64,000 nucleotides of DNA from Mytilus trossulus (taxonomy: Eukaryota). Positions 14,492 to 64,000 of the stretch are shown one piece after another (position 1 is the first letter of the stretch; every line of letters starts with the position of its first letter). The notes beneath the pieces were generated by a model, which saw nothing but the letters and a program-made list of their open reading frames with translations, did not search any database and was not told the DNA's origin. The DNA is taken from positions 27,404,001-27,468,000 of the forward strand of contig NC_086383.1 in the NCBI RefSeq assembly GCF_036588685.1, written 5' to 3'. A program made the position numbers and the translations under genes.

Positions 14492-14657
14492 GACCAATAT
14501 TGACCACAAAGGAATAGTCAAATTCCTCTCAATGACCAATATTGACCACAAAGGAATAGTCAAATTCCTCTCAATGACCAATATTGACCACAAAGGAATA
14601 GTCAAATTCCTCTCAATGACCAATATTGACCACAAAGGAATAGTCAAATTCCTCTCA
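14492..14657. repeat. 42-bp minisatellite x~4
   Basis: GACCAATATTGACCACAAAGGAATAGTCAAATTCCTCTCAAT repeated perfectly. Confidence 0.95.
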
Positions 14658-26100: not shown

Positions 26101-29100
26101 ACATTGTTGTTTGGAGGATAAGAACGAGCCGGTCTATGGGGAGGCGGAGGTAGCTACTGTTGCTTGTCATACTTACAATTCGTGACATTGTAGAGGTAGA
26201 ACTGGTGCACTGGGTTGTACATTGTTGTTTGGAGGATAAGAACGAGCCGGTCTAGGGGGAGGCCGAGGTAGCTACTATTGCTTGTCATACTTACAATTCG
26301 TGACATTGTAGGGTAGAACTGGTGCACTGGGTTGTACATTGTTGTTTGGAGGATAAGAACGAGCCGGTCTAGGTGGAGGTGGAGGTAGCTACAGAGAAAA
26401 AAGTAGTAAATTAAACGTCATATACTTGTGCCTCTCACTCAAAGTGTCCAAATCCTTTTTGAATCGTTCCTGCAAGCTTTGTGTATGTCAGCTGTCGGTA
26501 CATTTTGTGGAGAACTTACATGTTTGACTGAAATTATGTGTGTGTTTTGAAAATAATTATACGACTGAAATAATTGTAAGACTTGATAAATGATTTTCGA
26601 TTACTTTTCGATTGAATTCGATACTGTATGTGAACAAGAAAAAACTCGGGTAATCATTTCATAAACAATAAACATAATATATGACTACAGCTTAATAAAT
26701 ATATGTGAATTTAAATAGCTATGAAAATCATGTGCAAAGCTTTGTCAAATTAAGACACGAGTGCACAGTATTGAAATATAAAAATATCTAAATAATAATT
26801 ATCACGTTCCCCCTCCCCCTCCCCTAAAAAAAATATGAGAAGAAAAACCCCCAACAACATACAAAATACGACATGCGACATTTATCATCTCATTCATGAA
26901 TTGTATGTTTATGTATATACTTAAAACTGCCGAGCAAATATATTTTTACTTACAGTTGCTTTAATAGCTTCCAACCAGGCTCTGTAAATAAATATGACGG
27001 TCAGAGACATGAGCAAATACTTGAATTTAACACATGCTTGGTCGATTGGTCGAGGGTGTTTGACGCCATTTGCATCACACTCGGCTACATTATAAACTAG
27101 TTGACTTTTTGAATCACAAATACACCAACGAAAACTTCAATTTTGATTTTCTAAAATTATTGCAGAAAGCCGATCGAACTCAGTCAAGCAAAGTTTCCAC
27201 TAATGGACATGTATAAAACTATATTTTTTCCCGTTTTCAAATCGACATGTAGGATTCCATGGAAATCAGCAAAGACTGAAATTATACTTTAGCAAAATTC
27301 TTATGAATTATCAAAATCAGAGAACCGCTTCTCATTATATAACGTTGAATTGCTTCAAACGTAGTATAAATAAAACGGTTTCGATTCATTCAAAACTTCA
27401 TATCTTTAAGCAAACAACTGTCTATAGTGGAATTCTGTAAGTTGTCCTATACATACATTTGTATTTTTTTTTATTACGGTAGAAAGTCTTCATTTGCATC
27501 TGAATGTTAATGAAAGTCAACATTCTAGATATTATATATCACAATATTTCTCCTTTGGCGGGGATCAGGGGCGGATTAAGAGGGGGATATGGTCCAGAGG
27601 GCCGCACCCCCTTTTCTGAGAAAAACATGATTGATTATATAGGGAATCATTGAAGCATGACCGGAGCGGGCCCCTTCTTAGGCAGTCAGCGGATCCCTTC
27701 TTAGGCAGTCAGCCCCCACCACTTATGAAAATTGCTGGATCCACCCCAGGGGATACGAGAAAGATGAAACTTCAAACTTTGACCTGAGTCATACACTCAC
27801 TTCATATCTTCATCGCCTCCATCAAATAAAATCCAGCTCATGTTAATGTTTTCTTTTCTGGTTCCCCTCTTGAATATATTTGGTATTCCCATCAGATGAA
27901 CTACCTGTCTGCCTTTCGGAAGTTTAGGAAATTTACTTGTATGAAGGCACATTGGGCCAACCGCCATAAAATTAGCAACCATCTAGAATGGAAAGAAATA
28001 GTTTGATTAATACATATATTCCCGAAATATTTTGAAAGTATTAGTACTTAATTTCAAAACATAAGAAATCTCAACAAAAGGTGCCTATTTCTAGTAATTC
28101 ATTATATGCCATAACATTCTGTTATTTTCACCAAATTTAAAAAAGAATGGACAATCAAATAACTAAAAGCGAAACATAACACATTTTGAACTTCTATTTG
28201 ACCATGGTTTTTAAATAAAAATGTGCCAACTTGTATGTACATGTTCAAAGAACAAATGTAGTCGTCTTGTAGGTTGCATCACTGTTCAGGGTTTAATTCG
28301 CCGTTTTAGAATCTAAAGAACTATATCGCATAGTTCGTATACCAAAATGAAAACAACGTTACTTCATTGGTTGGATTTCTATTGTTTATAACGTTTTAAA
28401 CCAATCACAACGTTTTGGTGTAAGCTTTTGGAAATATTACACAGGGTGCATAAGATTCTGAAACGGCGAATTATGTACCTGTCACGATGTTGTGACATCA
28501 ATATACATGAGACGTGGTTTAACATGACAAGACGCAAATTCACTTGAATGCATGCGAAACGTTGTCATGCAGTATCAATTAGAGATATAAACTACATTTT
28601 GTATATCAAATATTTTTTTTACCGAAAAGCAAGATTAAGCATTTGCCTGTTTCTAGATTTACCTTTAATTTGATGCCTCCTTTGTGGTGGTAACTATTTT
28701 GGTTTTCATACCATAATAAACTACTGTCCTCAAATAACACAAAGAACCGCGAGTTCCATCCGTCATATAGACACCCTCCTTTAAAATAGTGCAAAAAGGG
28801 ATTCAAAGCAATGACTATTATGAAATGATCTGAAATTTCGTCTATCCCGCTAACATGTTTAACCCCGCCACATTATTAAAATATGCACCTGTCCCAAGTC
28901 AGAAGCCTGTAATGCAGTGGTTGTCGTTGGTTTATGTGTTACATATTTGTTTTTCGTTCATTTTTTTCATATAAATAAGGCCGTTAGTGTTTTCGTTTGA
29001 ATTGTTTTACATTGTCTTATCAGAGTCTTTATAACTGACTATGCGGTCTGGGCTTTGCTCATTGTTGATAGCCGTACGGTGACCTATATATAGTTGTTAA

Positions 29101-38387: not shown

Positions 38388-41300
38388 TTAACCTCCACAA
38401 CCTCCACAACCACCACAACCTCCACAACCACCACAATCTCCGCCGCATGCTCCACCATCCGCACCGTCATCACCAGGACGGCCGTCTCCATTGCCATTTT
38501 TACAGCAACCAGTTCCAAAGCAACCATGTTTACCGCAATCTTCTCCACAGCAACCAACTTCACAGCAACTCTCTTGACAACTATGATCACAACAGTATTC
38601 ATCGTCACAGCAATTATCATCACCACAGCCATCACTGGTACCGTTACTAAAGTTTCCTCTTTCAAAATCCCCAATATGATTTATATCATAGCCGTAATTG
38701 TTGTTTTTTTGACACAAATCGCCGACAATACTATCGATGTTTACACTCCCAAAGCCACTAACGTCATTCCAACTTCCCCAGTATCCACCGTAGGGATTTG
38801 GTCCCCATCCCCATCCCCAACTCCATCCAATACCTGGCCCATAACCATCAATACCACAACCTAGCGGTCCTCCAAGGATAACACCTAAAGAACATAATGA
38901 AACAGCATCATATGCAAAGGCTGTACACATGTAAGTACTTTATTTTGATAAAGTAGATATACTTCAGTTTCTATTGATGCATTAATTCAATAAATACCCG
39001 ATGTTTTGTGCATTGTGAGAGAATGACAATACCCTTGTCTTTCAATAGAAATTTCTTTCGAATCTTTCTGTTTTACCATCTGGTATTGATATTTATAGTT
39101 TTCAGCAACACTTTAACTAAATATACTCCTTTTGCAACTGATTTTTATAGTTCGTTTCTTATGCTGTACTGTTATACCACTGTCCCAGGTTAGGGGAAGG
39201 GTTGGGATCCCGCTTACATGTTTAACCCCGCCACATTATTGATGTATGTGCCTGTCCCAAGTCAGGAGCCTGTAATTCAGTGGTTGTCGTTTGTTTATGT
39301 GTTACATATTTGTTTTTCGCTCATTTAAAAAATAAATAAAAATAAGGCCGTTAGTTTTCTCGTTTGAATTGTTTTAAATTGTCTTATCGGGGCCTTTTAT
39401 AGCTATCTATGCGGTATGTGATTTGCTCATTGTTGAAGGACGTACGTTGACATATATATATATAGCTATAGTTGTTAATGTTTGTGTCAATTTGGTCTTT
39501 CGTGGATAGATGTCTCATTGGCAATCATACCACCTTATTCTTTTTTATATTCTTGGTGCCTTTCTGCACAACAAATCATTAGATATGTACCATATACTTT
39601 TATTGCTCAGAAACTCTTTCACTCACGCCTCAAAATACCTTGATATTGAACACGGCATGTGTATGGTACATAACATTTCTAGAGCAATACATCGTAATGG
39701 AAGTAACGAAGGTGTGAAATGTATTATGTTCTAGGATTTAAACATTAAAGTTTACCGGTTAGGATTACAATTTTTTTTTAATCGAAAAACAGTAAAACAT
39801 GCAAAATACAATACAAAGTCGAAGATCATTGAGGTATCAAAATTATAAAACAGATTAAAGTCATGAATAAAATGAACAAACCTTTTGTTTCTCTTTCAAT
39901 TATTATTTGCTATTGAAAAGACATCTCACATCATTTTATTTGTTACATATTGCCTTACCCCTTTGAATGCCTGAATATGTTCTTTCGTCTCTAGTGTTTA
40001 TATGTTGACATTCAGGTTGGTCTGAAATTAATATAAATAAATTTAAAACTGAAAAAAAAACGTTGTGTGCATTACAATTACTCCAATGGGAGAGCAAATA
40101 CATTGTCAAATTAACCTCAGTGTAAATATTTTATTGCATTTAGTTGAAGATCATTTCCGAGAACATTTACGTAAAATATTTACAGATTTAAAAAAAAAGT
40201 GTTTATGATATAGGATAATGTTCCATGCCTGCACCAATCGTTTAACGTAACTATCTGGAAAGTCAAGTGAAAGGTTAAATACGCTTTCAATACGTTTGTA
40301 ACCCGGATGTTTTTTTTGTTTTGCAGTCGATGTATGACTTTTGAACACCTATATTCAACTGTTGCATTTATTCAATACTGTGCAAACAATGTTGTATTGT
40401 AACAAGATGGCCGAAATGAATAAAAAATACACATTATGCATTTGTTGTATGGAAAAAGATAAACAATCGGAAATAGAAGTGTTTCTCATAAAAAATTAAA
40501 ACTCGAACTTCACAAAAAAAATCAGTAAGACAAAACAAAACGCACACACTTGGTCTGTAAATTGTAATAATACACATTACCTATGCTAACACAGTCAGAA
40601 TTAGAACAGAGAAGGGTAATGGGGAATTTAACCAGAAGATAAAAACCCGATCAAAGATCAGAAAACGGACAAATATTACAGATGGGTTTTGAAGAAGAGG
40701 CATTATACGAAGTAAAATGGTTTAACATGTATTTTTATTCCAAGGGCGGTAATTTCACCACAAGTCACATCAATCTGATAGTCAAAATCGACTAAATCGT
40801 TTGTCGTCATTATAAACATTTTAAAAGATAATGTCTGTAAGTCAATAGATGGTTTGCTATAAGAGAACGAATACATGCAGTCTCCTACTAACTTAGAATA
40901 TATTAGCTCCAACATGTTCATTGTGTACTTTTCATTGTCTTGTGGATGTGTCATGTAATTTTTCTATACATGATTTTTTTATAACGAGAACGGTCTTTCA
41001 ATTTTTTTAATACTTTTATTTTTAGTTCAATGTAACGTATTAGGTTATTCAGACTTACATCGTACTACATTAACTGTTGGGTATAAGTTAACCTGGTCAC
41101 CATTGCTTGATTAAGAAGCATTCGCTGGTGTAAACTGATTACCATTGCTTGAATGTTGAGCATTCTCTGGTATATCCTGCTTACAATTGCTTGAATAGTG
41201 AGTTTTCTCTGGTCTAACCTGCTTGCCATTGCTTGAATGGTGAGTATTCTCTGGTTCATCCTGCTTGCCATTGCTTAAATGGTGAGTATTCTCTGGTCTA

Positions 41301-44300
41301 TCCTGACTACCATTACTTAAATGGTGAGTATTCTCTGGTCTAACCTGCTTGCCATAGCTTGAATGGTGAGTATTCTCGGATCTATCCTGTTTGCCATTGC
41401 TTGAATGGTGAGTATTCTCTGGTCTATTCTGCTTGCCATTGCTTGTATGGTGAATATTCTCTGGTCTTGAAGGAGGAGAAGGCAGCTACAACAATTCAAG
41501 TTCAAATTTCATGGTGAAAGGGCAACTTTCATACTACATATCATATGAAAAAACTCATCATAGATGTATTTCCTCTAATGTGACGAAACTTAAATTAAAT
41601 GTGAACAAAACAAGAAAAACGTCAACAGTTACTTTACTACATATTTTTTTTAGACCGCTCATTTTGTCATCTTATCATAAAAAGATTTAATCATCTCAAT
41701 TAGTCAATAATAAAACTTATATTATAAAAAGATTAATTTTGAAAAGATATAAAGTAAAAGTTAAGTGCTAGTGGCACAGCCATTCGCTGCACATTTCAAA
41801 TGGGCTTGTTATTGTACCTACCGTTGGTTTAATAGCCTCAAGCCATGCTCTGAAAAATATAATGAATAAACATAAATAGTATATAATGCTGTGCAATATA
41901 GTACCTGTTTATAATGCAATACTCCAAAAACTAGTCGACTCCTTTCAAGTGTCCGAAACCTGTCACAAATATCCACACGTGCCCGATTCCATTCCACAAA
42001 ACGTGTCCAATTTCACTTCCCCAAAATATGTCCGTTTTTTTCTGCTAAAACTGTTCGAGTTGCACCTTTCTCAAACGTGCCAAATTTAAAACAGGTGTAT
42101 GTCTCAAAATGCTATGTGTTGATATATCTTTTTGACGTCAATTAGATCATAAGGGAATCAATTGGGAACATCACAATTTTGTCGATGCATAAAAAGGGAG
42201 ATTCAGTGTTTGCTTTATAATATAAATAAAAAATTGTAAAATAAAAAATAAAAAATATACACTGTTAGAAATTATTTTAAATTACGGAATATATAGCACT
42301 CATGCAATGTTTCTGGTAATACTATTTTGTTCTTTTTAGTCAATAAATTTCAAATAAGTTAGCTCGAATAGCACTGAAGAGACATGTCAAAATGCGCATA
42401 TTCAGCATAAACATTGATATCATTAATTTCCACGTAAATCACGTAGTACTACATAAATGCATTTTGGTGTTAATCTAATATAATAAAGTTTCTCTAGTAA
42501 ACATTTTTAGTTATAAACTAATATTTGTAGTCATAGTGACAGATAGTTCGAGGATGTCTTCTAACACAGATTTTAAGAGGGTTTACAACTGATCCCAACT
42601 GTATGATAAGTGTTGTAATTACATACTGCATGTCCCCTTCATACGTTGGGAATAAAATCCAGTTCATTTTAAGGTTTCTTCTTTTAGTTCCCTTTTTGAA
42701 GATATCAGGAACACCCATCAAATGTATGACATGTCTGCCTTTTGGAAGCTTTGTGAAACCAACTGTATGAAGACACATTGGTCCAACTGCAATGAAATTT
42801 GCTACCATCTGAAAAAAATGTCATATAGTCAAATAGTTTTTTTTAAGAAATCCCCCAAAATACCGATTTTAAAAAATAATTCAAAAATTAATGATTCATC
42901 ATCGCAGTTATAGGGAAACCTCACTCAGACATATTTATCGGATATCAGATGCGATTTGGTATTATCACGATATTCTCGAGTTCCATTCTAATTTTTTGAC
43001 TTGCTACAAATGTAGAAAGAGATTATAAATTCTCAGTAGAAGGGCGATACCGCTAATGATAGGCTGTCAGTCTTGGATAGTAATAGTATATTAACCTTAC
43101 TTGAAAGAAATCAATTTGTTATATTTTAAATAATAATTTGTAAAAAAATATGATTTTAAATTTATACGTACATATATTTAGATTTTAGAAACCTGTTGAT
43201 CAGTGTTTTTCGTTTGTCGATGTGGTTCATAAATGATAATAAAATAGTAAAATTTTACATATTAGGACTTCGATGGAGAGTTGTCGCATTGGCTTTCTTA
43301 CCACATCTTCTTATAACTAACTAAAATTTATCCCTTTTGTTGATTCTCTACAAAAGTGTCTTTTCAGAATCTAAATTGATGAGTTTAAATAAGTTTTACA
43401 ATTGTGTGATAAGTTTGAATACATATACACAACTGTATGTGGTGCTCCATAATTGGAAAAAAAATATATTCATACAATAGTACATTAGTATGAGAAGATT
43501 ACCTTAAGCCTTATACCACCCTTGTGGTGCCCATCGTCGTTTCCATGGTACCATAAAAGACTGCTGTCGGCATACAGTTTAAAATAACGGTCTTTCCATC
43601 CGTTGACGAAAAATCCTCCTGTATAATACCAAAACATATATAATAGACGAGCGTCTACAGTAACGAATTGAAAATGCTTTCTTTAATATGTCTACGCCAT
43701 GTTTTTAATATATTGTGAAACAACCTTTGCATATGAAATTTTGATATGCAAAGGTTGTATCCCAATATATATTTCGTCAGTTACTGAACTTGTAATTATT
43801 ATTGAAGATGCATAAAACAAAATAAAAAAGCATTACATTTTGTGTTCATTTCAATAATTCGAAATATATTATGTATATGTTTGCTTTTTTGGTTATGCTT
43901 TTCTAATTATTTAACCCTCTTACAGTAAAGAATTAAAAAAGGGATCGCTCGAAGTGACGCTGTTAAAATGATGAGATGCATAAATAGAGATTTAAGAAAT
44001 ACCCTATATGACTCAAGAACATGGGATGAACAAATTATAGGGGGGTTGATTTCAGATGCTGCGAGAAGGTTAACAGATAAACAACATCATAATAATTTAA
44101 ATAACAATATCTGAAATTAAAGTGAAAAACAAATGTCAGGACACAGGATAAACAAGAAGTTATTCGGTAGATTTTAAACAGACAATCATGCACAAGATCG
44201 TCCCAAAACAACACCGGAACCTTAATTTTTTTTATACAAGAACCAATTTAAAACAAAACTATGATCCATCGCAGTTACTTTGAAAGTGTATAATTGAGTC

Positions 44301-45991
44301 AAATTTATTGATATTAATTAAAATGTATGTACATGGATGTAAAAGTGGAGCAAACACTACTGACCTTTTCGATGAGCTCATCCCTATTTTTTTGTGAGGT
44401 TTTGTGTTAAATGTTTTGTTTCTTTGTACTGGTTAGATTAATTGATTTGAGCGTCACTGACGAGTCTTTAGTTGCCAAAACGTAAATCTGGATCTCATCT
44501 AAGACTTATATCTATGATGAGTTTATTATGAACTTAAACTTGTAATGTTGTCCCTTTTGGTAAAATGTGTTTTAATTGCTCCTTGGTTTCATCTTACTAT
44601 TTTGTTATCGTCATGTATCGGTTAAATTCATAGTTTACAGTTACGTTTTTAGACTGCTGGTGGAATTTTCGTCCCCGAGGGCATCACCAGCCCAGTAGTC
44701 AACACTTCGGAGTTGACATGAATATCAATAATGGGTCAATTTCCTGTTTACAAAACTTTGTATTTTTCAAAACAATGAGGATTTTCTTATCCCAGGCATA
44801 GATTACCTTAGATGTATTTGACACAACATTTTGGAATTTTGGATCCTCAATGCTCTTCAACTTTGTACTGGTTTGGCTTTATAAATATTTTGATATGAGC
44901 TTCCCTGATATTTCTTATGTATACGAAACGCGCGTCTGGCGTACTAAATTATAATCCTGGTACCTTTGATAATTATTTACAACACTGAGTCCATGCCACT
45001 GCTGGTGGACGTGTCTTCCTCGAGGGCATCACCAGCCCAGTATTCAACACTTCGGTGGTGACATGAATATCAATAACGTGGTAATTTTTATAAATTTCCT
45101 GTTTACAAAACTTTGTTTTATTAAAAAAACTAAGGATTTTCTTATCCCAGGCATAGATTACCTTTAATGTATTTGGCACAACTTTTTGCAATTTTGGATC
45201 CTCAATGTTCTTCAACTTAGTAATTGTTTGGCTTTATGAATATTTTGAAATGAGCGTCACTGATGAGTCTTTTGTAGACTAAACTCATCATAGATACCAG
45301 GACTAATTTTTATCAATACGCCAGACGCGCGTTTCGTCTGCAAAAGACTCATCAGTGACGGTCGAATCTAAAAAAGTTATAAAAAGCCAAATGAAGTACG
45401 AAGTTGAAGTGCATTGAGATCCAAAATTCCAAAAATTGTCCAAACGCGCGTCTGGCATTATAAATTATAATCCTGGTACCTTTGATAACTATTTGATCTA
45501 CTTAAAATTAAGCCAAATAAATGAGGTTAAATGTTCGACCAATTATTTTCTCAGTATGACTTGATTTGCGTGTCAATTGACAAGTGTTTATTTAATTCAC
45601 TAGACATTAATCTCCAAGGAAATAAGTATAGTGTTTTGAAGACTCATATTATCCTTAATGTACTATATTTTTCAAAGCCTTTATGTTACCAGGTGAATGA
45701 CCTATATTTTTTGTTCAACATATCTACTTTCAGGAAAGAAATTTTTTTTTGAGGTATATGACGTCATTATGCAGTGTTTTTATGTCACTTCACGTGTACA
45801 CTTGTTGATTTTCTCAATTCTAACTAATTTTCGAACAGTCGAGGACAGTTAAAATGAAAGCCCTTTGTATGATATTTAGTCAGAATATGAAAATTCAATG
45901 ACAATGTTTAACGGTTTGTAAATGTTCTTCTTATCTAACATACGTTCATAAATAGTAAGGTAACCAGTCTTCACTACTCGACTTGTTGGCT
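38388..45991 (-). CDS. PH-domain protein, PLEKHB/evectin-like, paralogue B (spliced), with His/Asn-rich 14-aa repeats and a Cys-rich acidic tail; in-frame TAA if the distal exon-5 donor is used
   Basis: Exons 45991-45944 (PTSRVVKTGYLTIYE), 43618-43503 (RGFFVNGWKDRYFKLYADSSLLWYHG...GGIRLK), 42808-42627, 41849-41822 (QAWLEAIKPT), 41485 to 41185/41143/41059 (LPSPPS + repeats), 40021-39959, 38884-38388 (GVILGGPLG...WSWGWGWGPNPY...CC-rich...CGG*). The first four exons are 48/116/182/28 nt with the same phases as paralogue A. A possible start exon is 46084-46075 (ATG ATA GGT G|GTAAAT), uncertain. Confidence 0.82.
39138..39550 (+). repeat. Dispersed repeat family (AAATAAGGCCGTTAGTTTTCTCGTTTGAATTG...GGCAATCATACCACATCTT)
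   Basis: Copies at 28830-29163, 7017-7250, 20420-20520, 25040-25240, 13090-13265 and 1288-1650 (opposite strand). Confidence 0.75.
41090..41467 (-). repeat. 42-bp coding tandem repeat x9 (RPENTHHSSNGKQD) in exon 5 of paralogue B
   Basis: Nine in-frame 14-codon units; unit 9 carries TAA at 41113-41111. Confidence 0.92.
44650..45492 (+). mobile_element. Head-to-tail dimer of the ~355-nt retrozyme-like repeat with an antisense copy inserted at 45280-45441
   Basis: Hammerhead core positions at 44905 and 45260 (period 355). Both monomers end in CCTGGTACCTTTGATAA. Confidence 0.8.
45319..45360 (-). ncRNA. Minimal type I hammerhead ribozyme with intact core, second repeat subfamily
   Basis: Minus strand: CGUCA-CUGAUGA-GUCU uuugc AGAC-GAAA-CGCGCG-UC^UGGCG, followed by the subfamily-B 3' end ...CCTGGTATCTATGATGAGTTTA. 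Confidence 0.85.
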
Positions 45992-48900
45992 CTATAATAA
46001 AAAAAAACATATATATAGTATAATATAGGTTACATGTAGCAATTTGAGATTCTTATTTAATTTGTACCATTTACCACCTATCATTACTTTTCCTTGAATA
46101 ATATTGAACGAACGCAAAATAGAATTTGAACATGCTCTATAGTGAAGCAGGTACCTTTCTGTGCGACATGAACTCACCCGCGGTTTTGGACGGGTTATTT
46201 TGATTAGTGTGGTGTTGGCTATGTTGTGTTTAGGAAACGTTTGTTTTTTCATTTTGTCGTCGTGTTTCGTGTTACCATGACGTTGTCAGTTTGCCTTAAA
46301 ATCACGTCAGTGTTCTCTTTTGAGTGTTTTTCTTCAGCAACATATAATATATTCGTTCCTATAAAGTAATTTGTATCAGCAAAATTGCACCAACTATTTT
46401 ACTTAATCTTATAATTAGTGAAGATATGTGAAATGTAGAGCAGGCTTTTTTATAAACCATCTTAACTCAACACTATGATGTACATTTATAACCTTTTGGT
46501 CCTTTAAGGGGTTCGCGGGTCTAAATCGTTTTTTTTCTTAGTATAGGATTTCGCTATATTTTTCTATAAATGAACTTTATCTTATACTTGTGTTTGAAAT
46601 TTTTATACCCTGGAGTCTCCTTTATGTTGTTTTATGTTACCCACATGTACATTTGCCTGTTCATAAGTTATGTGCATACAAATGTATAAAGCATCTAAAA
46701 TATAGCGACACATAGAAGTAACAGGATGATATTTCCAACAGATTTTTTGGTCACCGATCCTCAACGATAAAGCAAAAACACTATATATCATTTCGTGTTT
46801 TGTGTTTAAGGTTTAAAATCCTAACATAAATCGTCGTTTATCAAATTCATTTTTTCAATACATAAGTATTAGAATATCTTGTAAATATTAAAGAAAAGAC
46901 AAACAAATACCAACCGAGAACCACCCACATAACTGAGGCACAGTACTTATTTAATTAGCAACTAAATATGAATAGAGTTTAAATGTCACATAAATCATAA
47001 AACGCTAATGTACCATAAAATGATGAGTAGATTGTTTTCGAATATATATTCTTAAATATATAATAAAAGTATAATAAATATTTAATAAAAGTATTTGTAT
47101 ACTCAAAATGCCGCTTCCGGGTGCGGTATACTCTTGCTGTGTTCAATACCGATTGATGGCTTTTGACTTGTCATTTTACTCTAATGATGGGTTATTGTCT
47201 CTTTGAGTCATTAGCCATTTTCATTATCTATTTTATCTGATATTTGTCCAACTTTTTGTATCAGACATCTAATAGTTTATATGAAATTCCCTTTAATTCG
47301 TATAGGATCTGGATCACAACACTCCATGGTTTGTGTATAGATTCAAGTGTAGTAAACGATCGTTAAATATAAATTGTAAACAACTATTGTAGGAAGAATA
47401 CTTAAAATAAAATGCGTATCAAATAAAGGGCACTAGTACTTAAACACCCGAAATGAGATACGACCACGTGTTCGTTGAAAATGTTATAACAAAAGAATTG
47501 GAACTCCTATGGGAATTTAAAAAAATCCATAAAAACTGTCAAAATTAATCATTTTCAACAAAACGAGTTAACAATAACTGATAAAAGTCTGATTAGATAC
47601 AGCCTTTTTTCCAATGAAAATGAAACTATATAAAAAAAATATTGAAATAAGATAGCAGAAAAAAGTATGAATGTATTAAATAACACGATATGAATTTTAC
47701 ATGGTCCAGTAGAGATAGGGAATACTATCCAATAGAGGAAGTATACATTTTAAAGTAAGCAATGATATTGACGTACATTTAAAATATAGTGCGTATTAAA
47801 AAAACATAAGTATTTCCAAACAGACGATTCAATTAAAATCTATATTTCAAAATATCAAAATACCTGGTGGAGTAAAAAATACTATCTAATTTCAAAAGTG
47901 TATACACTTACTAAAAAATATATAGTAAACAACAATATGGACGTAAATTTAATTTAAACATAGTTAAAGGAAAATGCGTATCAATTAAGACACAAATATT
48001 TCTATATCAAGTATGATAATGGCATATTAGTAAAAATAGGTATTTCAAATATTGAAGTTGGATAATAAAACCAAAATAATGAAAAGATAACAAATAATAT
48101 AACAAAATTGTTACATGAATGAGTAGATATCTGGAAATTGAATTCAAAAAAATACTACACGTTAACTTATCAACATAATAGGATTTGAACATGCATGGGT
48201 TGAGATTGGGAACACTATCGAAAATAAGAACGTGTATAAATCATAATAAACAACAACCATCATGCTCTTCAACTCCATGCCTTATTTGGCCTTTTTAACT
48301 TTTTTTTATTCGAGCGTCAGTGATTTGTTCTTTGTAGACGAAACGCATGTTAGCGATAATACAAAATTTCAATTCAGGTATCTTGGATTAGTTTATTTAG
48401 TACATTTCAAATAAAGTGCGTATCAAATAAGACACAAGTATTCAAACACATATATTAAAAAGATGACGCGTTAGTTAAAAAAACATATTTCAAAATATTA
48501 AAAATAGATGATAAAAATAAAATATTGAAAATTAACTGATCAAAATGAATGAATTTTATACGAAGTGTATAAATCATAAAAAAAACAGCAATCACCATGC
48601 TCCATTCTTTATTTGGCCTTTTTAACTTTTTTTTTATTCGAGCGTCATGTCACTGATTTGTTATTTTGTAAATCAAAAGAAAAGAATGATAAATTAATTA
48701 CTTAATCTGAAATAATTGTAACATGGTGAAAACTATCGATTATAAGGAGTGTACACCATTATAATAAAAGACAATCATGAATAACATTACAAATGAAGTT
48801 CGTATAAAAAAAAAAATGTATTTGAAGACAAAATATGATACTATGGTGTATTATCAAAAAAAATATCAACATATTTTTAAAATAAAAAGAAACAATATTC

Positions 48901-50843
48901 CTATGAGTTGTCCAAATCTTGAAGCTACAACAGCATTGCCCATATCATTGACCTGAACTTGAAAACTAAACAGATGAAATTCGTATGCAGGCAGTTTGAT
49001 TATTTCCATAAAAATATTAATGAAATCATTCATGTGATAGAAAAATTAATTAGTTATTTGCAATTGTTTTTTTGTGAGTTACAAAATGACTTCGTGTTGT
49101 AAATGGTGATTTTCAACTGTCTTTGTGACATTGATCCGCATCTGATTTTCCTCAGGTGCAAACGGATTTGTTAAAAAGATGGGGAGGTGCCTGGCAATTT
49201 AATGTTTTGAATGATACCTATACAGGGTTTGAATTTATCATTTATCCATAATCATATCCTCTTCCTGAATTATCGTCATCATAATTTACTTTTACATTTG
49301 CAAATAATCCAGATAAAGATGTGAAAAAGACAAGAGGGCCTGGGTTTTTTGAACAAAATTTTTAACAAAGACAATTTACCTATCTAATAAAATGGTGTGA
49401 GCCAAAATATCCTATCTTAATTTTAGCTACTTTTGACCAGGTCAAACCAGTTTGACTAATGAAGTGTAAACAATTTCACTAGCACAAAAAAATCACATAA
49501 TATAATGGCTAAATTTTAAGACCTGTCAGATGAATGCATATTAATACTAAGAATATAATTAAGAAACTACTTTATACCAAGAATAAATCACTAAATATAC
49601 ATACATTCTAAACTTCATTTATTGCCTAAAATCATGTTCGGCAATAGGTTGAATAATCATCATCAGATTTCAGTTAATAAGCTTAACACATGATTTATGC
49701 CTAAAAATTTCAGGCAATAACTTAATGTCTATGATTTAAGCTTAATGCCTAATTTCACTTATTGCCGCAAACATATATATGCAAACGAATAAGGCAAGCG
49801 TTCATACCTGTAATCGAAAATAAATAACTAATGACTTTGATATGGCATAAAACACATAACAACATTTTTTGTCCTTTTTAAATATTCCTAGAAGACCATC
49901 ACTGCTGGATGACTTTTATTAGTGCCTCGTTTTTAACCCTATTCAGGCTGTCTGTTGTTTAAAATAAATACTTGGACTTGTGCAGTTGAGCAATTTTTAC
50001 AGTATATAAACTTTCTATGAATCATTGTACTATGATACCGAGTTATTATCAAGTGACAGATGAAGAGGGGAGGGATGGCACACATAGTTTAAGTTGAAGA
50101 AACAATTAAATACGTTTGATATAATAGCAACAATTCACAAAATAAACCAGCAAAAAAAATAAAGGAAACAAATATTTCTAAACTTTTTAAAATTAGTCAA
50201 ACCAGATGTCTCAGTCACAAAGGCGCGCCAAATGCATCTAAGAACTGAATTCGATGAACGAAAGTTACCAGGGCTATGAGAAACGTAATAACAACATATC
50301 GATGAACGATTATTTGAAAAAAGTCGAACCTCAGTAGTTTCCGAGAAAATATACAACCATTTAAAGAATAAACTAAAAAAATGAAATGGGGAATGTTTCA
50401 ATTAGACAACCCGACAAATAAGAAGAAAACAGCAAAAAGGCCATCAATGGTTCTTAAACACAGCAAGAAAATCCTGCATCCGTAAGCGGCCCACTAAACA
50501 AAAAATGTGTAATAATTCAGAAAAAATCGACGTCATACTAACTCGAAATCGTGTAAACGAACTAAAATCATACAGGACTAACAAAGAACAGACGCTCTTG
50601 ACTTTTGACAGGGATAAAATGCTGGTCAAAAAATAAAATGTGAAAAAAATATATTATTTTTATTTTATCTTTCATTTCATTTTCCATGAAACAATAAATA
50701 GATTTTTTTTAAATTGTGTAACATATGTTTATTCTGCAAAAACACGCAATATCGTCATTATGACCCGATGTGTAAGGAACCCTTTTAAACATTTTACACC
50801 GTTTCACTTCACATTTCCTATGACACAACTGTATGTAAACAAG

Positions 50844-53800
50844 ATGTTGAAGTTACAAGTATCTATATATAGTATCTGCATGGTGTTGACTCTGATACTG
50901 CATGATGAAGTGAAAGCTGAATCATGCACTACGCTAAGTAAGTTTTCATATTTACAGCAAAATCGAGCAATCTTATCCATTTATCTTGAAAATGTTAATT
51001 TTGATTTTATTAAAAGTAGAACTAGTTACCGTTTAAATAAAATCGACAATATGCACACCTTAAACATGTTATAGTGAAAGTCACGCGGAACATAAATAAC
51101 AAAAATACACGTGCATTTATTATCTAACAATGAAAAAACAAATAATGACTTTTATTACAATTTTAGAAAATGTTGCATACAAAATTCAGGATACCAATCT
51201 CTATTTTTGCAGTAAAAATAAAATCACAAAAATTTCCGAATTTACAGCATTTGGTCCGAGTACACAGTTATCGTCCTTTGATTTTCGTTGTCCACGAATA
51301 TAGTCCTTAGTGTGGACAGTCTGTGACTTGTCAATTTTTGTTATACCCCTTCCAAATTTATTTCTTCATGTTTTATGCCTCATATAGCAAGTTGGGGGAT
51401 GAAATGACACTGTAAAAAAATTTGGGTCATAAATATTTAAGTAAAGTAGTGATTAGGTCCAGCTGAAAAAGGTAAAAAATTAGCACTTCGGAAGCTGTCA
51501 AAAGATTTCAAGACCCCCTTAACATAAAATTGTCCATATTTTGAGTTAGAGCTGATGAAGTTTTCTATACTTTTGATATAATTTGTCCCAAAAGTAGTAC
51601 AACACACTGTAAGAATATTATTTAGAAAGCGCAGGTGGGATTTTTTTTATTTTCATTTATTGTCTAAAAGAAATGCACTACGAAATAACTGTGTACTCGG
51701 ACCTAAGAGGTGAAATCAGGAAATATAGAATTTGTACTTTGGAAACTTCCCTGAATGATTTGATGGTGTCACTTTGTCAAATAGCATAACACTAAAGGAT
51801 TTTTACTTTTATTTGATAGAATTTCTGCAAAAATTACCATTTTTGGCATTATATGGTCAAAATAAGCATTTCATAGCTTTTTCAATTTTGATGCATAAGT
51901 GGCATTCCGACTTTCTATCTGACATGTTTTCATGTGTCAATTTTTGTGTTTCTGTGCTTTAATCCAGTTGAATTACTCATTTGTGAACCCTGAATCTACA
52001 GAAAAGAAGATTATCTCAGACAATATGAGCAAAAAGTGTTGTATAAATGACCCTCGTCTAACGCCCTGTTTGGATCAAGTTAAATGTGAGGAGCATGGCA
52101 CATAAAAGTTGGAAGTCCATAATAAAGACTTACTAAATTTTTATAAAAAACACTAAACAATGTCTTTTGTACCTATTACATTTCACATAATATCTTTCTT
52201 TACTTCTGTAGGATACCATGTGGTTCACATATAAGCCTGTTGAGACTAAAATTGCATGCAAGTTTTTCACTAAAAAGTGAAAAATCTTTGTATCAGACCA
52301 TATTGTCTGCTAAAAAAGTTGAATGTAAAAGCCTTTTTGTGCTCAGATTTATTGTATCATGTCACATGAGTATAGAGATGATAGAAAAGACACAAATTTT
52401 TATTTCCTATAGCTTCAATGTGCATTTTTAAATGTAAATATGTGCGACGGCCTAAATTGACCCTAAATTATTTTTAGTCTTATTTGACCTAAGACCCATT
52501 TAAACTAATATGATATGTTATTTGTAAGTTTTCTTTCCATTTAAAGTACATTAAATACATATGTAAGGATTATTTATAATCAAAAAGCTTCACAAATTTA
52601 AAATTGCTGGAAAATATTACATCTTCATATAAGGCCCCCCTTCATTGGAAAACCTGCATTTTTAGGCACAGGCTCATATAAATTTGACTTTTGAAAAATT
52701 ATGCTAAGTCTGATATATCAAATGAGTACTCTATTGCTTTAAATACATGATATTTTGTATATTAAGGCATTTTAAAAGTATTGTTTTGCAATATTTTAAT
52801 TTTAAAAGCCCCAAATGTTGTTAGTTGAAATTTATCAATTTTAACATCAAAATTTAACACGCAAAGTTGAATATAGAATTAATCATAGTATCTATAATAT
52901 ATATCCAATTGTTATCAAACTTTGTTAGCAGTTTTATAATATATTAAGCTTTTGTCATACCAAGTTTTATTAAGATTTGGCAACTTTTTCTATCCTATTA
53001 GGTCCGAGTACACAGTTATCGTCCTTTGATTTTCGTTGTCCACCAATATAGTCCTTAGTGTGTACAGTGTGTTACTTGTCAAGTTTTGTTATACCCCTTC
53101 CAAATTTATTTCTTCATGTTTTATGCCTCATATAGCAAGTTTGGGGATGAAATGACACTGTAAAAAAATTTGGGACATAAATATTTAAGTAAAGTAGTGA
53201 TTAGGTCCAGCTGAAAAAGGTAAAAAATTCGGAAGCTGTCAAAAGATTTCAAGACCCCCTTAACATAAAATTGTCCATATTTTGAGTCAGAGCTGATGAA
53301 GTTTTCTATAATTTTGATATAATTTGTCCCAAAAGTAGTACAACACACTGTAAAAATATTATTGAGAAAGCGCAGGTGGGATTTTTTTTATTTTCATTTA
53401 TTGTCTAAAAGAAATGCACTACGAAATAACTGTGTACTCGGACCATTTTTGTTAATAGCATTATTATCGAAAATTCTTCTTTATAAATTTAAAAAAAATG
53501 AAAAACAAAATCCATTTAGCAGGTTTGAGCAAAGATGGATTTCGATAGTCTTTTGAGATAGTCTTTTAGTCATTAAATTGTTTTTGAAGTTTTAAAATAA
53601 CACCCTTTGCTGACATTGTTTGTGTATGATCGTGCTTGATTAAGATACATCGATGAGCTAGGTGAAATATAAACAGACACATTTCATTGTGCGGCCGTTA
53701 GTAATAAGCATATGACTATATTGATGTCCGAAATTTTTTGTGATAAGTTAAATTGAGAAGAACTTGACACAGCATGACCCCAAGAAACTGATACGCAAAT

Positions 53801-56564
53801 TTTATCAACAAATGAACTGTTATGCAATAAATGACATTGTTATAAAAAATGTGTATAAATTGATTAGTGTACATCATTGTACAATAAAATGAAAAACTAC
53901 AAACTTATCACATATGAAGTACATGTATCGATTGTTTGAGCCGATGGTTGATTTTTTCATATTTACAACATCTGATTACCAAAGATTGTTTTTCCAAATC
54001 GAACTAATTATTAAATTCAATCAATTCAAGGGTCATATCATTTATTACGTACAACCAAATGCCAAGACTTAGCACGCTTATTAAAAAAAAGTAGTTTAGA
54101 TGAAATTATCCTGGCTAAAAAAGCATACTTTATTTATAATATTTTTTTCATTGTCGTTTTGTAAACATTATGTTTGTAAGTTAAGATCCCGAATATACCC
54201 ACCGTAAGCTAGAGTGAAAGTTTCTGGTCAATTCAAATCTTAGTTCAAGGTTTTACCCACAATTGTCTTCGGTAAATGTATTTACTAGGTCATAAAAACA
54301 TGCAAGACACATTTGAGACAGTGTATTTTACTCTTTCCGTTGGTTGGCAACGTTAGATTTACTGGTCTGCTTACCCTTTCAGGAGCACCTGAGATCACCC
54401 CCAGTTTGTGGTGGGGTTCTTGTTGTTCAGTTTTTTTTTTTTCAATTTGTGTCTGGTTTACTTTCATATGGCTCTTTGTCTATATCATTTTTAGCCATGG
54501 CTTTGTCAGTTATTTTGTTCTATGAATTTGACTGTCCCTCTGGGATTTTACCCACCTCTTTTAAGTACGCCTCCTTTCAAAAGTTTGCTTTCTGTTTTGG
54601 GTTTTTGTCAAGAAGTTGCGATACGACAATATTTTAAACCTAATGAAGAGTTGTTTTATTGGCAATTACATCACATGTTCTTATCTTTATAATGCTAAAA
54701 AAAGGAATATACAAAGGGATGGGATGGTTTCTAATTTTTTTTAACAAAATGCAATGCTGAAAGGGGAAAGCATGTGGAATGTATGTCATAGGAAGATTGC
54801 TATCTATACTAAGGACAATGATATATACACTATTGTCTTTACTAAACAAATTGTTATATACAGAACATTAAAATATACGGAAATTCAACATTTGAATATG
54901 GCAAAATCTTAAAACAATGGTATAACACCCACCGGCATGTCCCACGTCACAATATGATGTGGAGGGTTGTATAATATTGTATCTTCAACATACGTCAAGT
55001 GTGGTTATCACTCATTTTCAGAAAGGAAGATAGTTGACAACTTACGGGAAATGATGATTCCCTTCAGATGTGGACCTCAAACATTTGGTAAATAGTGCAT
55101 ATTTCACATACTTGTATTTAAAATAATTCTGCATGCGATCAAATTGCGAATGGAAATGAGGAATGTGTCAAACAGACAACAACTCGACTGAAGAACAGAC
55201 AACAGCCAAGGCCACCAATGTTTTTTAAATGCAGCGGGGAATTCCTGCACCTAAAGGCGTGCTTCAGCGGTGCATAAAAACAAATATACTAATCCAGTGA
55301 TGGACGACATACTTAACTCCGAAATATATAAAAGCGTCTAAAATTAAAAATCCACGCTAAGATCATGAAATCATAAGAAGGACCTTCAAAGACATTAAGG
55401 TTTACTTTAATCCTAATATGCATGCATACTATTGCAGATAACTTTTTATCTATCACATTAACAGTACATGGACAGGCAGTTCCTTATCTATGCTACCCTC
55501 TTCCCTTTCCTTTACTCTCCCTCGACCCAAACTTATTAAATAGCATGTTATCAGAATACATAGATTGGTATTACCCATCATCCCCATTTCCACCTTTGAA
55601 TCCGATTTTTTACCTCTTCCTCCCCTTTCCCGACCAGCATTATGAGGTTTTATCCATGTCCACTGCTTCTTCATGTACAGTAGCTACAGTGATTTGAAAT
55701 AAAAACAAGGTCCAACGGAATTATCACAATTAACTCTGGAATTGTTTTCCGTTTTTTGGCAAAAGTGCATGGGTGACATCCGGAAATAAAACTTGTTTTG
55801 TTGAAATACAGATAAAGGTAAAATTTTCTACTATCAATCGTGCATGTTTTGGGTATTTTTATGATTATTTTGTGAAGCCTATCTCTAAATTTGTTTAGGT
55901 CTTTGATCATTGATGTTTGATGTGATCTTTATTTATATACATGATTGTATGATTGAAAAATATACCATTCTTTTGTGTTTTTTTATTATTACATTTATTT
56001 TCAAATTGTTAAATAATATAACAATGTATCTGAACAGAAACGATAGGTTTGACGTACGAAAATATTGGTGTTTTTGGAAATTAAAGCTTCCTTTCTTATT
56101 GTTTTTTTTTTTATCTAAAACTTTATTCCATATTTCAAAATTAACAACAATTTTAATTATTTATAGGTGTCAGTGATGATGAAGACAGACCTGCTTTCAC
56201 AGCTACACTAAAAAGTCCTATAAGTCTCACTAATGGTGCTGCAATTATATTTGACACAGTAATTTTGAACCGTGGTGGGGGATACAATCCCAAGACAGGA
56301 ATATTTACAGCAACAAAGAAAGGAATATATCAAATATCTGCGACAATCATGTCACAAGGTGGAGATCAAATGATTTGTTACATTACTAAAAATGAACGTA
56401 ATATCTTGAGCTTGTATGGTCCAAGGCTCCATGGCGCATCAGAAACTGCAAATCCCGTGCTAGAACTTGAAAAGGGAGATATTGTTTCTGTGAAAAGCTA
56501 TGGTTCACAACAAATAAATGGGGATCATTATTCTTATTTTTCAGCAGTATATATAGCTCAGTGA
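50844..56564 (+). CDS. Secreted globular-head C1q-domain-containing protein (C1qDC), 3 exons, 185 aa
   Basis: Exon 50844-50937: signal peptide MLKLQVSIYSICMVLTLILHDEVKA-ESCTTL, donor A|GTAAGT. Exon 55022-55087: KRKIVDNLREMMIPFRCGPQTF. Exon 56167-56564: PAFTATL...IIFDTVILNRGGGYNPKTGIFTATKKGIYQIS...VLELEKGDIVSV...YSYFSAVYIAQ*. All introns are phase 1 and the gC1q motifs are canonical. AATAAA follows at about 56590. Confidence 0.92.
51253..53444. mobile_element. Composite element: two direct ~450-bp TIR-bounded units (51253-51703, 53001-53444) around a 1.3-kb core, in C1qDC intron 1
   Basis: Each unit starts GGTCCGAGTACACAGTTAT and ends ATAACTGTGTACTCGGACC. The units are near-identical. ATTT flanks the outer ends (51249-51252, 53445-53448). 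Confidence 0.8.
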
Positions 56565-63014: not shown

Positions 63015-64000
63015 ATGAATCCATGTGTATTTACTTTTTATTTTCCACTGCTGATGTTTATACTGCAATTGACAGGTAAGTTCAGAGTTTTGTTTTTAAT
63101 ACGGTTAGTTTAGAAATTATTTCGAGGTATTTATAACTGCAAAAATTGAGATTGGGTCAGTAGCGCTTTAATAAGCAATCACATTTTGAAAATGTTCATA
63201 TACATTTCTAATAATGATTATTCCTCTTTAGCTTTTGTGCATACTTCAAACATTGCAAGACTTGGTGTGATACATAATCTATTTTTTTCCTACATTTACA
63301 GCACAGATACTCTGAAACCAAGAGGATTAAAATGGTCGTTTATATATTATAATATCAGAAAGAAAAATATTCAATTAGTTTATTATGTCAGTAGATCCGC
63401 ATTAGGGCCATTTTAACTTCGTTTTTTTTAAGGAAAAGTCAATCTGGTTAATTAAGTTGGGGAATTATCTTTTTTTTAGGGGGGAGGGGGTATTCCTAGT
63501 CGGAATGAGACAATTATTTGTTTACTAGGCATGCGAAAATCTGATGGGTAGATAGCTGATATTTACTCTTTAAATTAATATAAATAGATTGAACGTTAAC
63601 GTATGCCAACACAATGTCAGCTTGGGAAAAAGGTCAGATTACTTAGTATTAATAAAATGTTATTTAATATGTTATTATATGTTTACTTTCTCGAAAGTAG
63701 GACCAATCTTAGTATATTTTCATGCAGTTCAATACTACTTTTAGATTCATTAAGATGGACAGTAGAACACAAAGTAACTGACTATGGACAAAACTTAATA
63801 TTGTTATGTAGAGTGTCGAACTGTTGTATGAAAGATGCAGGATGGTATTTATGGACTCCTACAAAACGCACAATTCTTAAAGACGTAAAAACTGCTAGTA
63901 TATCAGTCCCAAAGAAGTATTCGGGATATATTCGAACAGATGGTTTTAGTCTTATTATCAATAATCTTACACGAGCTGATATGAACGTTAGTTACTCTTG
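63015..64000 (+). CDS. Immunoglobulin-like domain protein, 5' part (signal-peptide exon plus Ig exon running off the window)
   Basis: Exon 63015-63075: MNPCVFTFYFPLLMFILQLT, donor G|GTAAGT. Exon from 63745: DSLRWTVEHKVTDYGQNLILLCRVSNCCMKDAGWYLW...KKYSGYIRTDGFSLIINNLTRADMNVSYS(C). It has the B-strand Cys, the C-strand Trp, an LxIxNL E strand and a DxxxxYxC F strand. Confidence 0.85.

What the first reader, a model, noticed from the sequence alone, without database searches (positions are those of the whole stretch)
41059..41485. Paralogue B exon 5: nonsense codon before the ancestral donor, bypassable by donors arising inside the repeat
Seen: the exon from 41485 to the consensus donor T|GTAAGT at 41059 is 427 nt (phase 1) but has TAA at codon 125 (41113-41111). 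Its end (LYPTVNVVR-Y) resembles paralogue A's end (PVLPYNVTN-Y), suggesting this is the ancestral donor. Each 42-bp unit contains a donor-like site in the same phase (AATG|GCAAGC). Unit 7 reads AATT|GTAAGC (exon end 41185) and unit 8 AATG|GTAATC (41143). Both lie upstream of the stop and restore the frame. All other exons are intact. Inference: the gene is either rescued or regulated by alternative donors, or this is a recent null allele.
Basis: partly seen in the sequence, partly recalled or inferred. Interest (0 to 1): 0.7.

Follow-up and report, generated by a model that had tools for sequence, protein, structure and literature searches.

The report
Mussel gene allele with early stop
A mussel PH-domain gene carries an early stop codon in this genome copy, but six other samples read lysine there and all five RNA samples splice at the normal site, so it is likely an ordinary broken allele and not a stop bypassed by new splice sites.

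Summary
The coordinates are right: a 427-nt exon (41485-41059, minus strand) with nine 42-bp units has TAA at codon 125, and GT sites at 41185 and 41143 are in phase. The gene is a Mytilus PH-domain paralogue. The TAA stands in 1 of 7 runs laid (DNA run X1, identical to the window and probably its source). The other 6, from 6 studies, read AAA (Lys). All 5 RNA-type runs join 41059 to 40021. No joint from 41185 or 41143 appears (complete table for 2 runs, truncated for 3). Both GT sites also sit on the AAA alleles, so they predate the stop, and sites of that quality are common by chance. The window haplotype has two more suspect changes: intron 1 begins GG instead of GT, and an invariant Pro reads Thr. 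Verdict: likely a segregating null allele of a redundant, normally spliced gene. Not excluded: low-level use of the repeat donors in a TAA carrier, for which no RNA was seen; contigs also drop minor isoforms. Ordinary; interest low.

The parts
47291..47327 (-). Paralogue B coding exon 1 (ATG at 47327, 37 nt, phase 1)
   Evidence: tblastn 12 of 12 residues to P0012; model
47289..47290 (-). Intron 1 donor dinucleotide reads GG instead of GT: candidate second lesion on this haplotype; not checked in other samples
   Evidence: sequence; paralogue A has GT at the same place
45944..45991 (-). Coding exon 2 (48 nt)
   Evidence: loose ends of X8 and X9 behind 43618 match it
43503..43618 (-). Coding exon 3 (116 nt), PH domain
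   Evidence: PF00169 E 0.0075; joint 42808-43503 in 4 of 4 runs
42627..42808 (-). Coding exon 4 (182 nt), PH domain; codon 86 (42754-42752) is Thr in the window where RNA contigs and all relatives have Pro
41903..41905 (-). Alternative donor in intron 4 (CAG|GTACTA, exon end 41905) joined to acceptor 41485 in some RNA contigs; skips the 28-nt exon
   Evidence: X13 loose end located; pieces starting at 41905 in X6, X9, X11
41822..41849 (-). Coding exon 5 (28 nt), end of PH domain
   Evidence: joints 41485-41822 and 41849-42627 in X6, X8, X9
41059..41485 (-).
   Evidence: joint 40021-41059 in 5 of 5 RNA-type runs
41090..41467 (-). Nine 42-bp (14-aa) tandem units inside exon 6
41183..41185 (-). 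In-phase GT site in unit 7 (ATT|GTAAGC); no use seen
41141..41143 (-). In-phase GT site in unit 8 (ATG|GTAATC); no use seen
41111..41113 (-). Premature TAA (codon 262 of 465); AAA in 6 other runs, Glu in related species
41053..41058 (-). Ancestral, used donor GTAAGT
39959..40021 (-). Coding exon 7 (63 nt)
38388..38884 (-). Coding exon 8: Gly/Trp-rich segment and Cys-rich tail, with the normal stop
   Evidence: joint 38882-39957 in 4 of 4 runs

Best explanation
The TAA is a real single-base nonsense variant on one haplotype of a mussel PH-domain gene that in other samples reads AAA and is spliced at 41059, so this copy is likely a null allele, and the GT sites in the repeat are likely incidental. 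Shown: the variant, the AAA alleles, splicing at 41059, and the presence of both GT sites on AAA alleles. Inferred: a TAA transcript spliced at 41059 would give a 261-aa product lacking the 204 C-terminal residues or be degraded by nonsense-mediated decay (stop ends 52 nt before the next junction and 115 nt before the last; whether mussel decay follows the junction rule is not known to me). Inferred: the haplotype was tolerated because close paralogues exist, and it has gathered further damage (GG at the intron 1 donor, Pro86Thr).
For:: DNA run X1 matches the window without a difference over 39940-41870 (one 1749-nt contig, depth 45, spans the TAA); DNA run X2 (9.65 of 9.65) and RNA-type runs X9 (275.5 of 275.5) and X13 (73.9 of 73.9) read AAA; the complete joint table lists only 40021-41059 and 41485-41822. 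X6, X8, X9, X11 all show AAA and joint 40021-41059. Contigs across 41059-41252 differ from the window at one base only in X8, X9, X11, X13, and X2's only difference there is 41113, so both GT sites exist on AAA alleles. All 9 related proteins with this repeat type run to the ancestral exon end and have Glu at the stop's place. Donor at 41059 matches 8 of 11 consensus bases, the two repeat sites 6 of 11, a level met 10.8 times per kb. Further damage on the haplotype. Redundancy: at least four clades of paralogues; a related but distinct contig (35 differences in 314 nt) is in RNA.
Against: No RNA from a TAA carrier was seen, so loss of product is inferred. All runs are contigs, which drop rare forms, so minor use of the repeat donors cannot be excluded; the joint table was truncated for X6, X8, X11 (67 rows hidden). 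RNA may under-count a TAA allele if it is degraded; only one independent DNA run was laid, and it bears another organism label. In one search part of the depth at 41113 (81.8 of 224.1 in X6, 12.8 of 63.4 in X8, 10.9 of 40.9 in X11) comes from other contigs whose base is not shown; I read them as a paralogue, but did not see the letter. The consensus score is crude: real donors of this gene also score only 6-7. X1 shows no second allele, which would mean a homozygous or hemizygous carrier (or a collapsed bubble); a homozygote would imply the allele is not very rare. The GG donor was not checked in any other sample.
Confidence: 0.85

Rival explanations
1. Latent rescue: in TAA carriers a share of transcripts uses the in-phase GT at 41185 or 41143, skips the stop and gives a shorter full-tail protein (42 or 28 codons fewer).
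For: Both sites are in phase and upstream of the stop; repeat number varies among relatives, so losing units is probably tolerated; such cryptic-donor rescue is described for ABCA7 at about 10% of reads (PMC5563332, passages); the gene does splice loosely elsewhere (donor 41905).
Against: No joint from either site in the complete table for X9 and X13 or in the rows shown for X6, X8, X11; the sites predate the stop; the stronger donor at 41059 is intact; use would delete the conserved exon end kept in all 9 relatives; the intron 1 GG donor would probably disable the allele anyway.
Confidence: 0.05
2. The TAA allele makes a stable, working truncated protein (PH domain plus repeats, no tail), i.e. 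a soluble variant rather than a null.
For: The PH domain lies wholly upstream of the stop (PF00169 residues 18-135 in the orthologue); stop-bearing transcripts via donor 41905 reach high contig depth in X13 (63.8 against 73.9), which hints that decay may be weak; X1 shows no second allele.
Against: GG at the intron 1 donor and Pro86Thr at a position that is Pro in 29 of 29 relatives point to decay; 6 of 7 runs keep the tail.
Confidence: 0.05
3. The TAA is a sequencing or assembly error.
For: It is seen in no run other than X1, which may be the source of the window.
Against: X1's contig, assembled separately at depth 45, carries the same base and matches the window throughout 1931 nt.
Confidence: 0.03
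4. The locus is a fixed, silent pseudogene in this species.
For: Three suspect changes in the window copy; in 2 of 5 RNA-type runs (X11, X13) the normal joints around the 28-nt exon are not listed.
Against: AAA and normal GT-AG joints between exons 3-8 in X6, X8, X9; exon 7 is 19 of 21 and exon 8 128 of 157 identical to the M. edulis orthologue.
Confidence: 0.02

Closest known systems
Segregating loss-of-function alleles and dispensable genes in Mytilus (PMC7653742, passages)
   Same: Highly heterozygous genome (1.73% in M. galloprovincialis), many hemizygous regions and dispensable genes; a broken copy of a tandem paralogue in one animal fits this background.
   Different: That paper deals with presence or absence of whole genes; whether this locus is hemizygous or dispensable was not measured here.
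Rescue of premature stops by cryptic donor or exon skipping: ABCA7 (PMC5563332, passages); zebrafish mutants (PMC5716581, passages)
   Same: An in-frame cryptic donor in the same exon as the lesion could remove it; in ABCA7 such isoforms also occur without the mutation.
   Different: There the rescue junctions were observed in RNA (2-10%, up to 30%); here none was seen, and no carrier RNA was available.
Mytilus PH-domain proteins XP_071141540.1 and CAG2248891.1 (M. edulis; P0012, P0003)
   Same: Same clade (100/100 support), 130 of 136 identical over the PH part to P0003, same exon end, same Cys-rich tail.
   Different: Fewer and differently worded 14-aa units (exon 72 and 114 residues against 142), Glu at the stop's place, no stop.
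PLEKHB1/2 (evectins)
   Same: N-terminal PH domain, Pro-rich middle, a weakly hydrophobic Gly-rich segment after it.
   Different: Profile match to PLEKHB2 is weak and not best (E 0.0075, rank 4 of 29); the segment is below usual membrane-helix hydrophobicity and is followed by a long tail. A lead only.

Membership tests
Segregating nonsense (null) allele | The stop is real in the genome | tested here: met
   X1 contig, depth 45, identical to the window; X1 may be the source sample
Segregating nonsense (null) allele | Other individuals carry a sense codon | tested here: met
   AAA in 6 of 7 runs laid, 6 studies; 4 of these share X1's organism label
Segregating nonsense (null) allele | Sense alleles are transcribed and spliced in frame | tested here: met
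   GT-AG joints between exons 3-8 in X6, X8, X9; joint 40021-41059 absent from DNA runs
Segregating nonsense (null) allele | No working product from the stop allele | not testable with these tools
   No RNA or protein from a carrier; GG donor and Pro86Thr are indirect hints
Premature stop rescued by a cryptic donor (ABCA7 type) | In-frame donor-like site upstream of the stop | tested here: met
   41185 and 41143; chance level 72% for one, 38% for two
Premature stop rescued by a cryptic donor (ABCA7 type) | The site is used in RNA | tested here: inconclusive
   No joint in 5 RNA-type runs, all from AAA alleles; contigs drop minor forms; table truncated for 3 runs
Premature stop rescued by a cryptic donor (ABCA7 type) | Donors arose with or after the stop (compensation) | tested here: not met
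   Both GT sites are on AAA alleles in X2, X8, X9, X11, X13
Fixed pseudogene | Lesion shared by all individuals, no spliced transcript | tested here: not met
PH-domain protein (PF00169) | Pfam PH score above the curated cut-off | tested here: met
   Orthologue P0003 28.1 bits against 25.1; single window exon alone 17.2 bits, below cut-off
PLEKHB / evectin | N-terminal PH domain (PMC8463983) | tested here: met
   residues 18-135
PLEKHB / evectin | Single membrane-spanning segment (PMC8463983) | tested here: inconclusive
   Best 19-residue hydropathy after the PH domain 0.59-0.87 in the B clade, 1.07-1.34 in the A clade
PLEKHB / evectin | PH domain closest to PLEKHB among PH families | tested here: inconclusive
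   PLEKHB2 rank 4 of 29 at E 0.0075; Atlas score 0.85, a lead only. Not filed as a member.

The most novel reading that the evidence does not exclude
An expanding exonic tandem repeat has spawned in-frame splice donors that lie dormant on normal alleles and become the surviving route in animals carrying the stop, so the repeat acts as a built-in bypass that lets a nonsense allele persist, even without a second intact copy.
Probability: 0.04. Interest if true: 0.5.

Novelty: new member of a known kind. Interest (0 to 1): 0.1.

Why it matters
As found, it matters little: a broken allele of one paralogue in a very polymorphic mussel genome. Practical use: annotation of this assembly will truncate or mis-splice the gene, and the allele here should not be taken as the species' sequence. 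If the bypass were shown in carriers, it would be a neat natural case of a coding repeat supplying rescue donors.

Tried and rejected
No whole genome is held for the window. A homologue search with the repeat exon alone found nothing among 1750 candidates; the repeat is too divergent and low in complexity. The run search listed no holder on record as RNA (no evidence either way); the RNA nature of X6, X8, X9, X11, X13 rests on their spliced joints. An exact search of metagenome contigs for the exon 1 end, to check the GG donor elsewhere, found 0 stretches. dN/dS was not computed: no orthologous DNA was available and the difference table was truncated (186 rows hidden); protein identity was used instead. 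Searches had off-by-one exon limits (B exon 2 in 24; several A exons in 24 and 29) that gave false stops; corrected for B and for A; the codon effects and scores quoted are for exons not touched by the slip. Single-sequence search of solved structures gave only weak PH hits. Earlier scan notes: nothing by place, words or sequence. Rejected: that the same phase in each unit is meaningful (forced by the 42-nt period); that GC sites in the units are donors (no joint).
Full report
Observation. On the minus strand the exon runs from the acceptor at 41485 to the donor GAT|GTAAGT at 41059, 427 nt, phase 1, with TAA at 41113-41111 as codon 125. It holds a 42-bp array (8.3 copies by TRF; nine units by hand). 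GT sites at exon ends 41185 and 41143 are in phase 1 and upstream of the stop. The motif AATG|GCAAGC is exact in 3 of 9 units; it spells Asn-Gly-Lys-Gln, and its constant phase follows from the 42-nt period.

The gene. A search with the exon at 42808 returned 6 proteins, 5 named as Mytilus and one unnamed; cluster look-ups and a search with paralogue A brought the set to 29. tblastn with five of them finds two genes in the window, A and B. B has eight coding exons from ATG 47327 to stop 38388; the joined frame has 466 codons with stops only at 262 and 466, so the finding's exon is coding exon 6. A tree of the PH part (19 rows) puts B with P0001, P0003, P0004, P0009, P0010, P0012, P0013 at 100/100 support. 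The orthologue P0003 scores above the Pfam PH cut-off. Likeness to PLEKHB/evectin is weak and I do not file it there.

Ancestral donor. Of 29 relatives, 22 could be read across this exon's end and all 22 run to the equivalent of 41059; the other 7 are truncated or too divergent for the pattern. The 9 with a B-type exon have Glu where the window has TAA; their exon length varies (28, 58, 72, 114 residues against 142 here), so the repeat number is labile while the exon end is kept.

Is the stop fixed? One search listed 20 runs; 7 were laid. DNA run X1 matches the window with no difference across 39940-41870 and carries the TAA in a 1749-nt contig of depth 45. It may be the window's source, so it argues against an assembly slip but is no independent carrier. 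DNA run X2 differs at 18 listed bases and one deletion and reads AAA. Runs X6, X8, X9, X11 and X9, X13 read AAA. That is TAA in 1 of 7 and AAA in 6 of 7 runs, from 6 studies; 4 of the 6 share X1's organism label. At the looser likeness, part of the depth at the site in X6, X8 and X11 comes from other contigs whose base is hidden; their structure (35 differences in 314 nt in X11, fewer repeat units in X6) marks them as a close paralogue by inference. RNA could under-count a stop allele, and only one independent DNA run was seen. X1 shows no second allele although X2 kept a small bubble; the carrier is homozygous, hemizygous, or had isolated differences collapsed. Hemizygous regions are widespread in mussels (PMC7653742, passages).

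Which donor is used? All 5 RNA-type runs join 41059 to 40021 (depths 142.3, 50.6, 275.5, 36.7, 73.9). The complete joint table (X9, X13) has no joint from 41185 or 41143, nor do the 15 rows shown (67 hidden). Contigs show presence, not absence, so this rules out major use on AAA alleles only. More telling, contigs across 41059-41252 differ from the window only at 41113 in X2, X8, X9, X11 and X13, so both GT sites are older than the stop and are passed over by the spliceosome in the assembled transcripts. By a simple count against the donor consensus (recalled), 41059 scores 8 of 11 and the repeat sites 6 of 11; sites of 6 or more occur 10.8 times per kb, 15 times in the next intron, and a random stretch of the same length has two in a given phase 38% of the time. 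The score is crude, as real donors of this gene also score 6-7.

The haplotype. Two more changes suggest decay. Intron 1 begins AAAG|GGAATT, where the frame of the relatives demands a donor and paralogue A has GT; read-through meets a stop at codon 17. I could not check this base in other samples (one search found nothing). Codon 86 is Thr in the window, Pro in RNA contigs of 4 of 4 runs and in 29 of 29 relatives. Downstream exons remain conserved in protein (exon 7 19 of 21, exon 8 128 of 157 identical to P0003), as expected for a young allele of a working gene.

Mechanism. Shown: a point change AAA to TAA, normal splicing of AAA alleles at 41059. Inferred: a carrier transcript would end translation after 261 residues, keeping the PH domain and eight repeat units and losing the Gly/Trp segment and Cys-rich tail, or be degraded (52 nt to the next junction, 115 nt to the last). 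With several paralogues in the family, loss is probably cheap. Confidence 0.85. Rivals: latent rescue in carriers 0.05, working truncated protein 0.05, error 0.03, fixed pseudogene 0.02.

Comparison and novelty. Rescue of premature stops by cryptic donors is known (ABCA7, PMC5563332, passages; zebrafish, PMC5716581, passages), but there the junctions were seen. High genetic load in bivalves is reviewed in PMC5804265 (search listing and abstract start only). I found no paper on this gene among the 10 listed of 101 hits, which is a narrow search; no supplements were read. The finding is a new member of a common kind. One real oddity lies upstream: a donor at 41905 in intron 4 is joined to acceptor 41485, skipping the 28-nt exon, with a stop at 42520-42518 if exon 4 is read through. 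It is the only route into exon 6 listed for X13 (depth 63.8), probably also for X11, and minor in X6 and X9. It truncates rather than rescues and may mark a second broken haplotype.

Noticed in passing
window 47289-47291 (minus): Paralogue B intron 1 starts with GG, not GT. Either a second lesion on the stop haplotype or a shared non-canonical donor; not checked in other samples.
   Followed up: partly
window 41905 to 41485 (minus): Alternative donor in intron 4 joined to the repeat exon, skipping the 28-nt exon and leaving a stop at 42520-42518. Only form listed in X13 and probably X11, minor in X6 and X9; the retained-intron contigs of X6 and X11 share nine differences from the window. Relatives P0002 and P0013 also end in read-through of introns 4 and 5.
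   Followed up: partly
window 25700-26388 (minus): Paralogue A has six head-to-tail 117-bp copies of its whole exon 6 with donor and a 23-nt spacer ending in AG. Only the first copy has a pyrimidine tract; each spacer holds in-frame stops; copy 2 has a 1-nt insertion. Using the first copy gives an open 364-aa frame; annotated relatives have one copy.
   Followed up: partly
window 42752-42754 (minus): Thr in place of a Pro that is invariant in 29 of 29 relatives; RNA contigs have Pro.
   Followed up: yes
contigs of X6, X8, X11 over 41059-42810: A close, expressed relative of paralogue B with fewer repeat units is in the RNA runs but not in the window.
   Followed up: no
window 39000-39600 and 43226-43426: High-copy repeated elements in introns (contig depth in the thousands at 39206-39607 in RNA-type runs).
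   Followed up: no
window 56157-56561 (plus): Open frame of 135 codons that resembles a C1q domain by eye (recalled, not tested).
   Followed up: no
window 63600-63998 (plus): Open frame whose end resembles an immunoglobulin-like domain by eye (recalled, not tested).
   Followed up: no
window 16850-17530 and about 50800-50900 (plus): Short frames with signal-peptide-like starts followed by Cys residues, and a 63-bp tandem repeat at 17381-17529; possibly small secreted Cys-rich peptides (by eye).
   Followed up: no
window 14492-14658: A perfect 42-bp tandem repeat, 4 copies, 100% matches, unrelated in sequence to the exon repeat.
   Followed up: no
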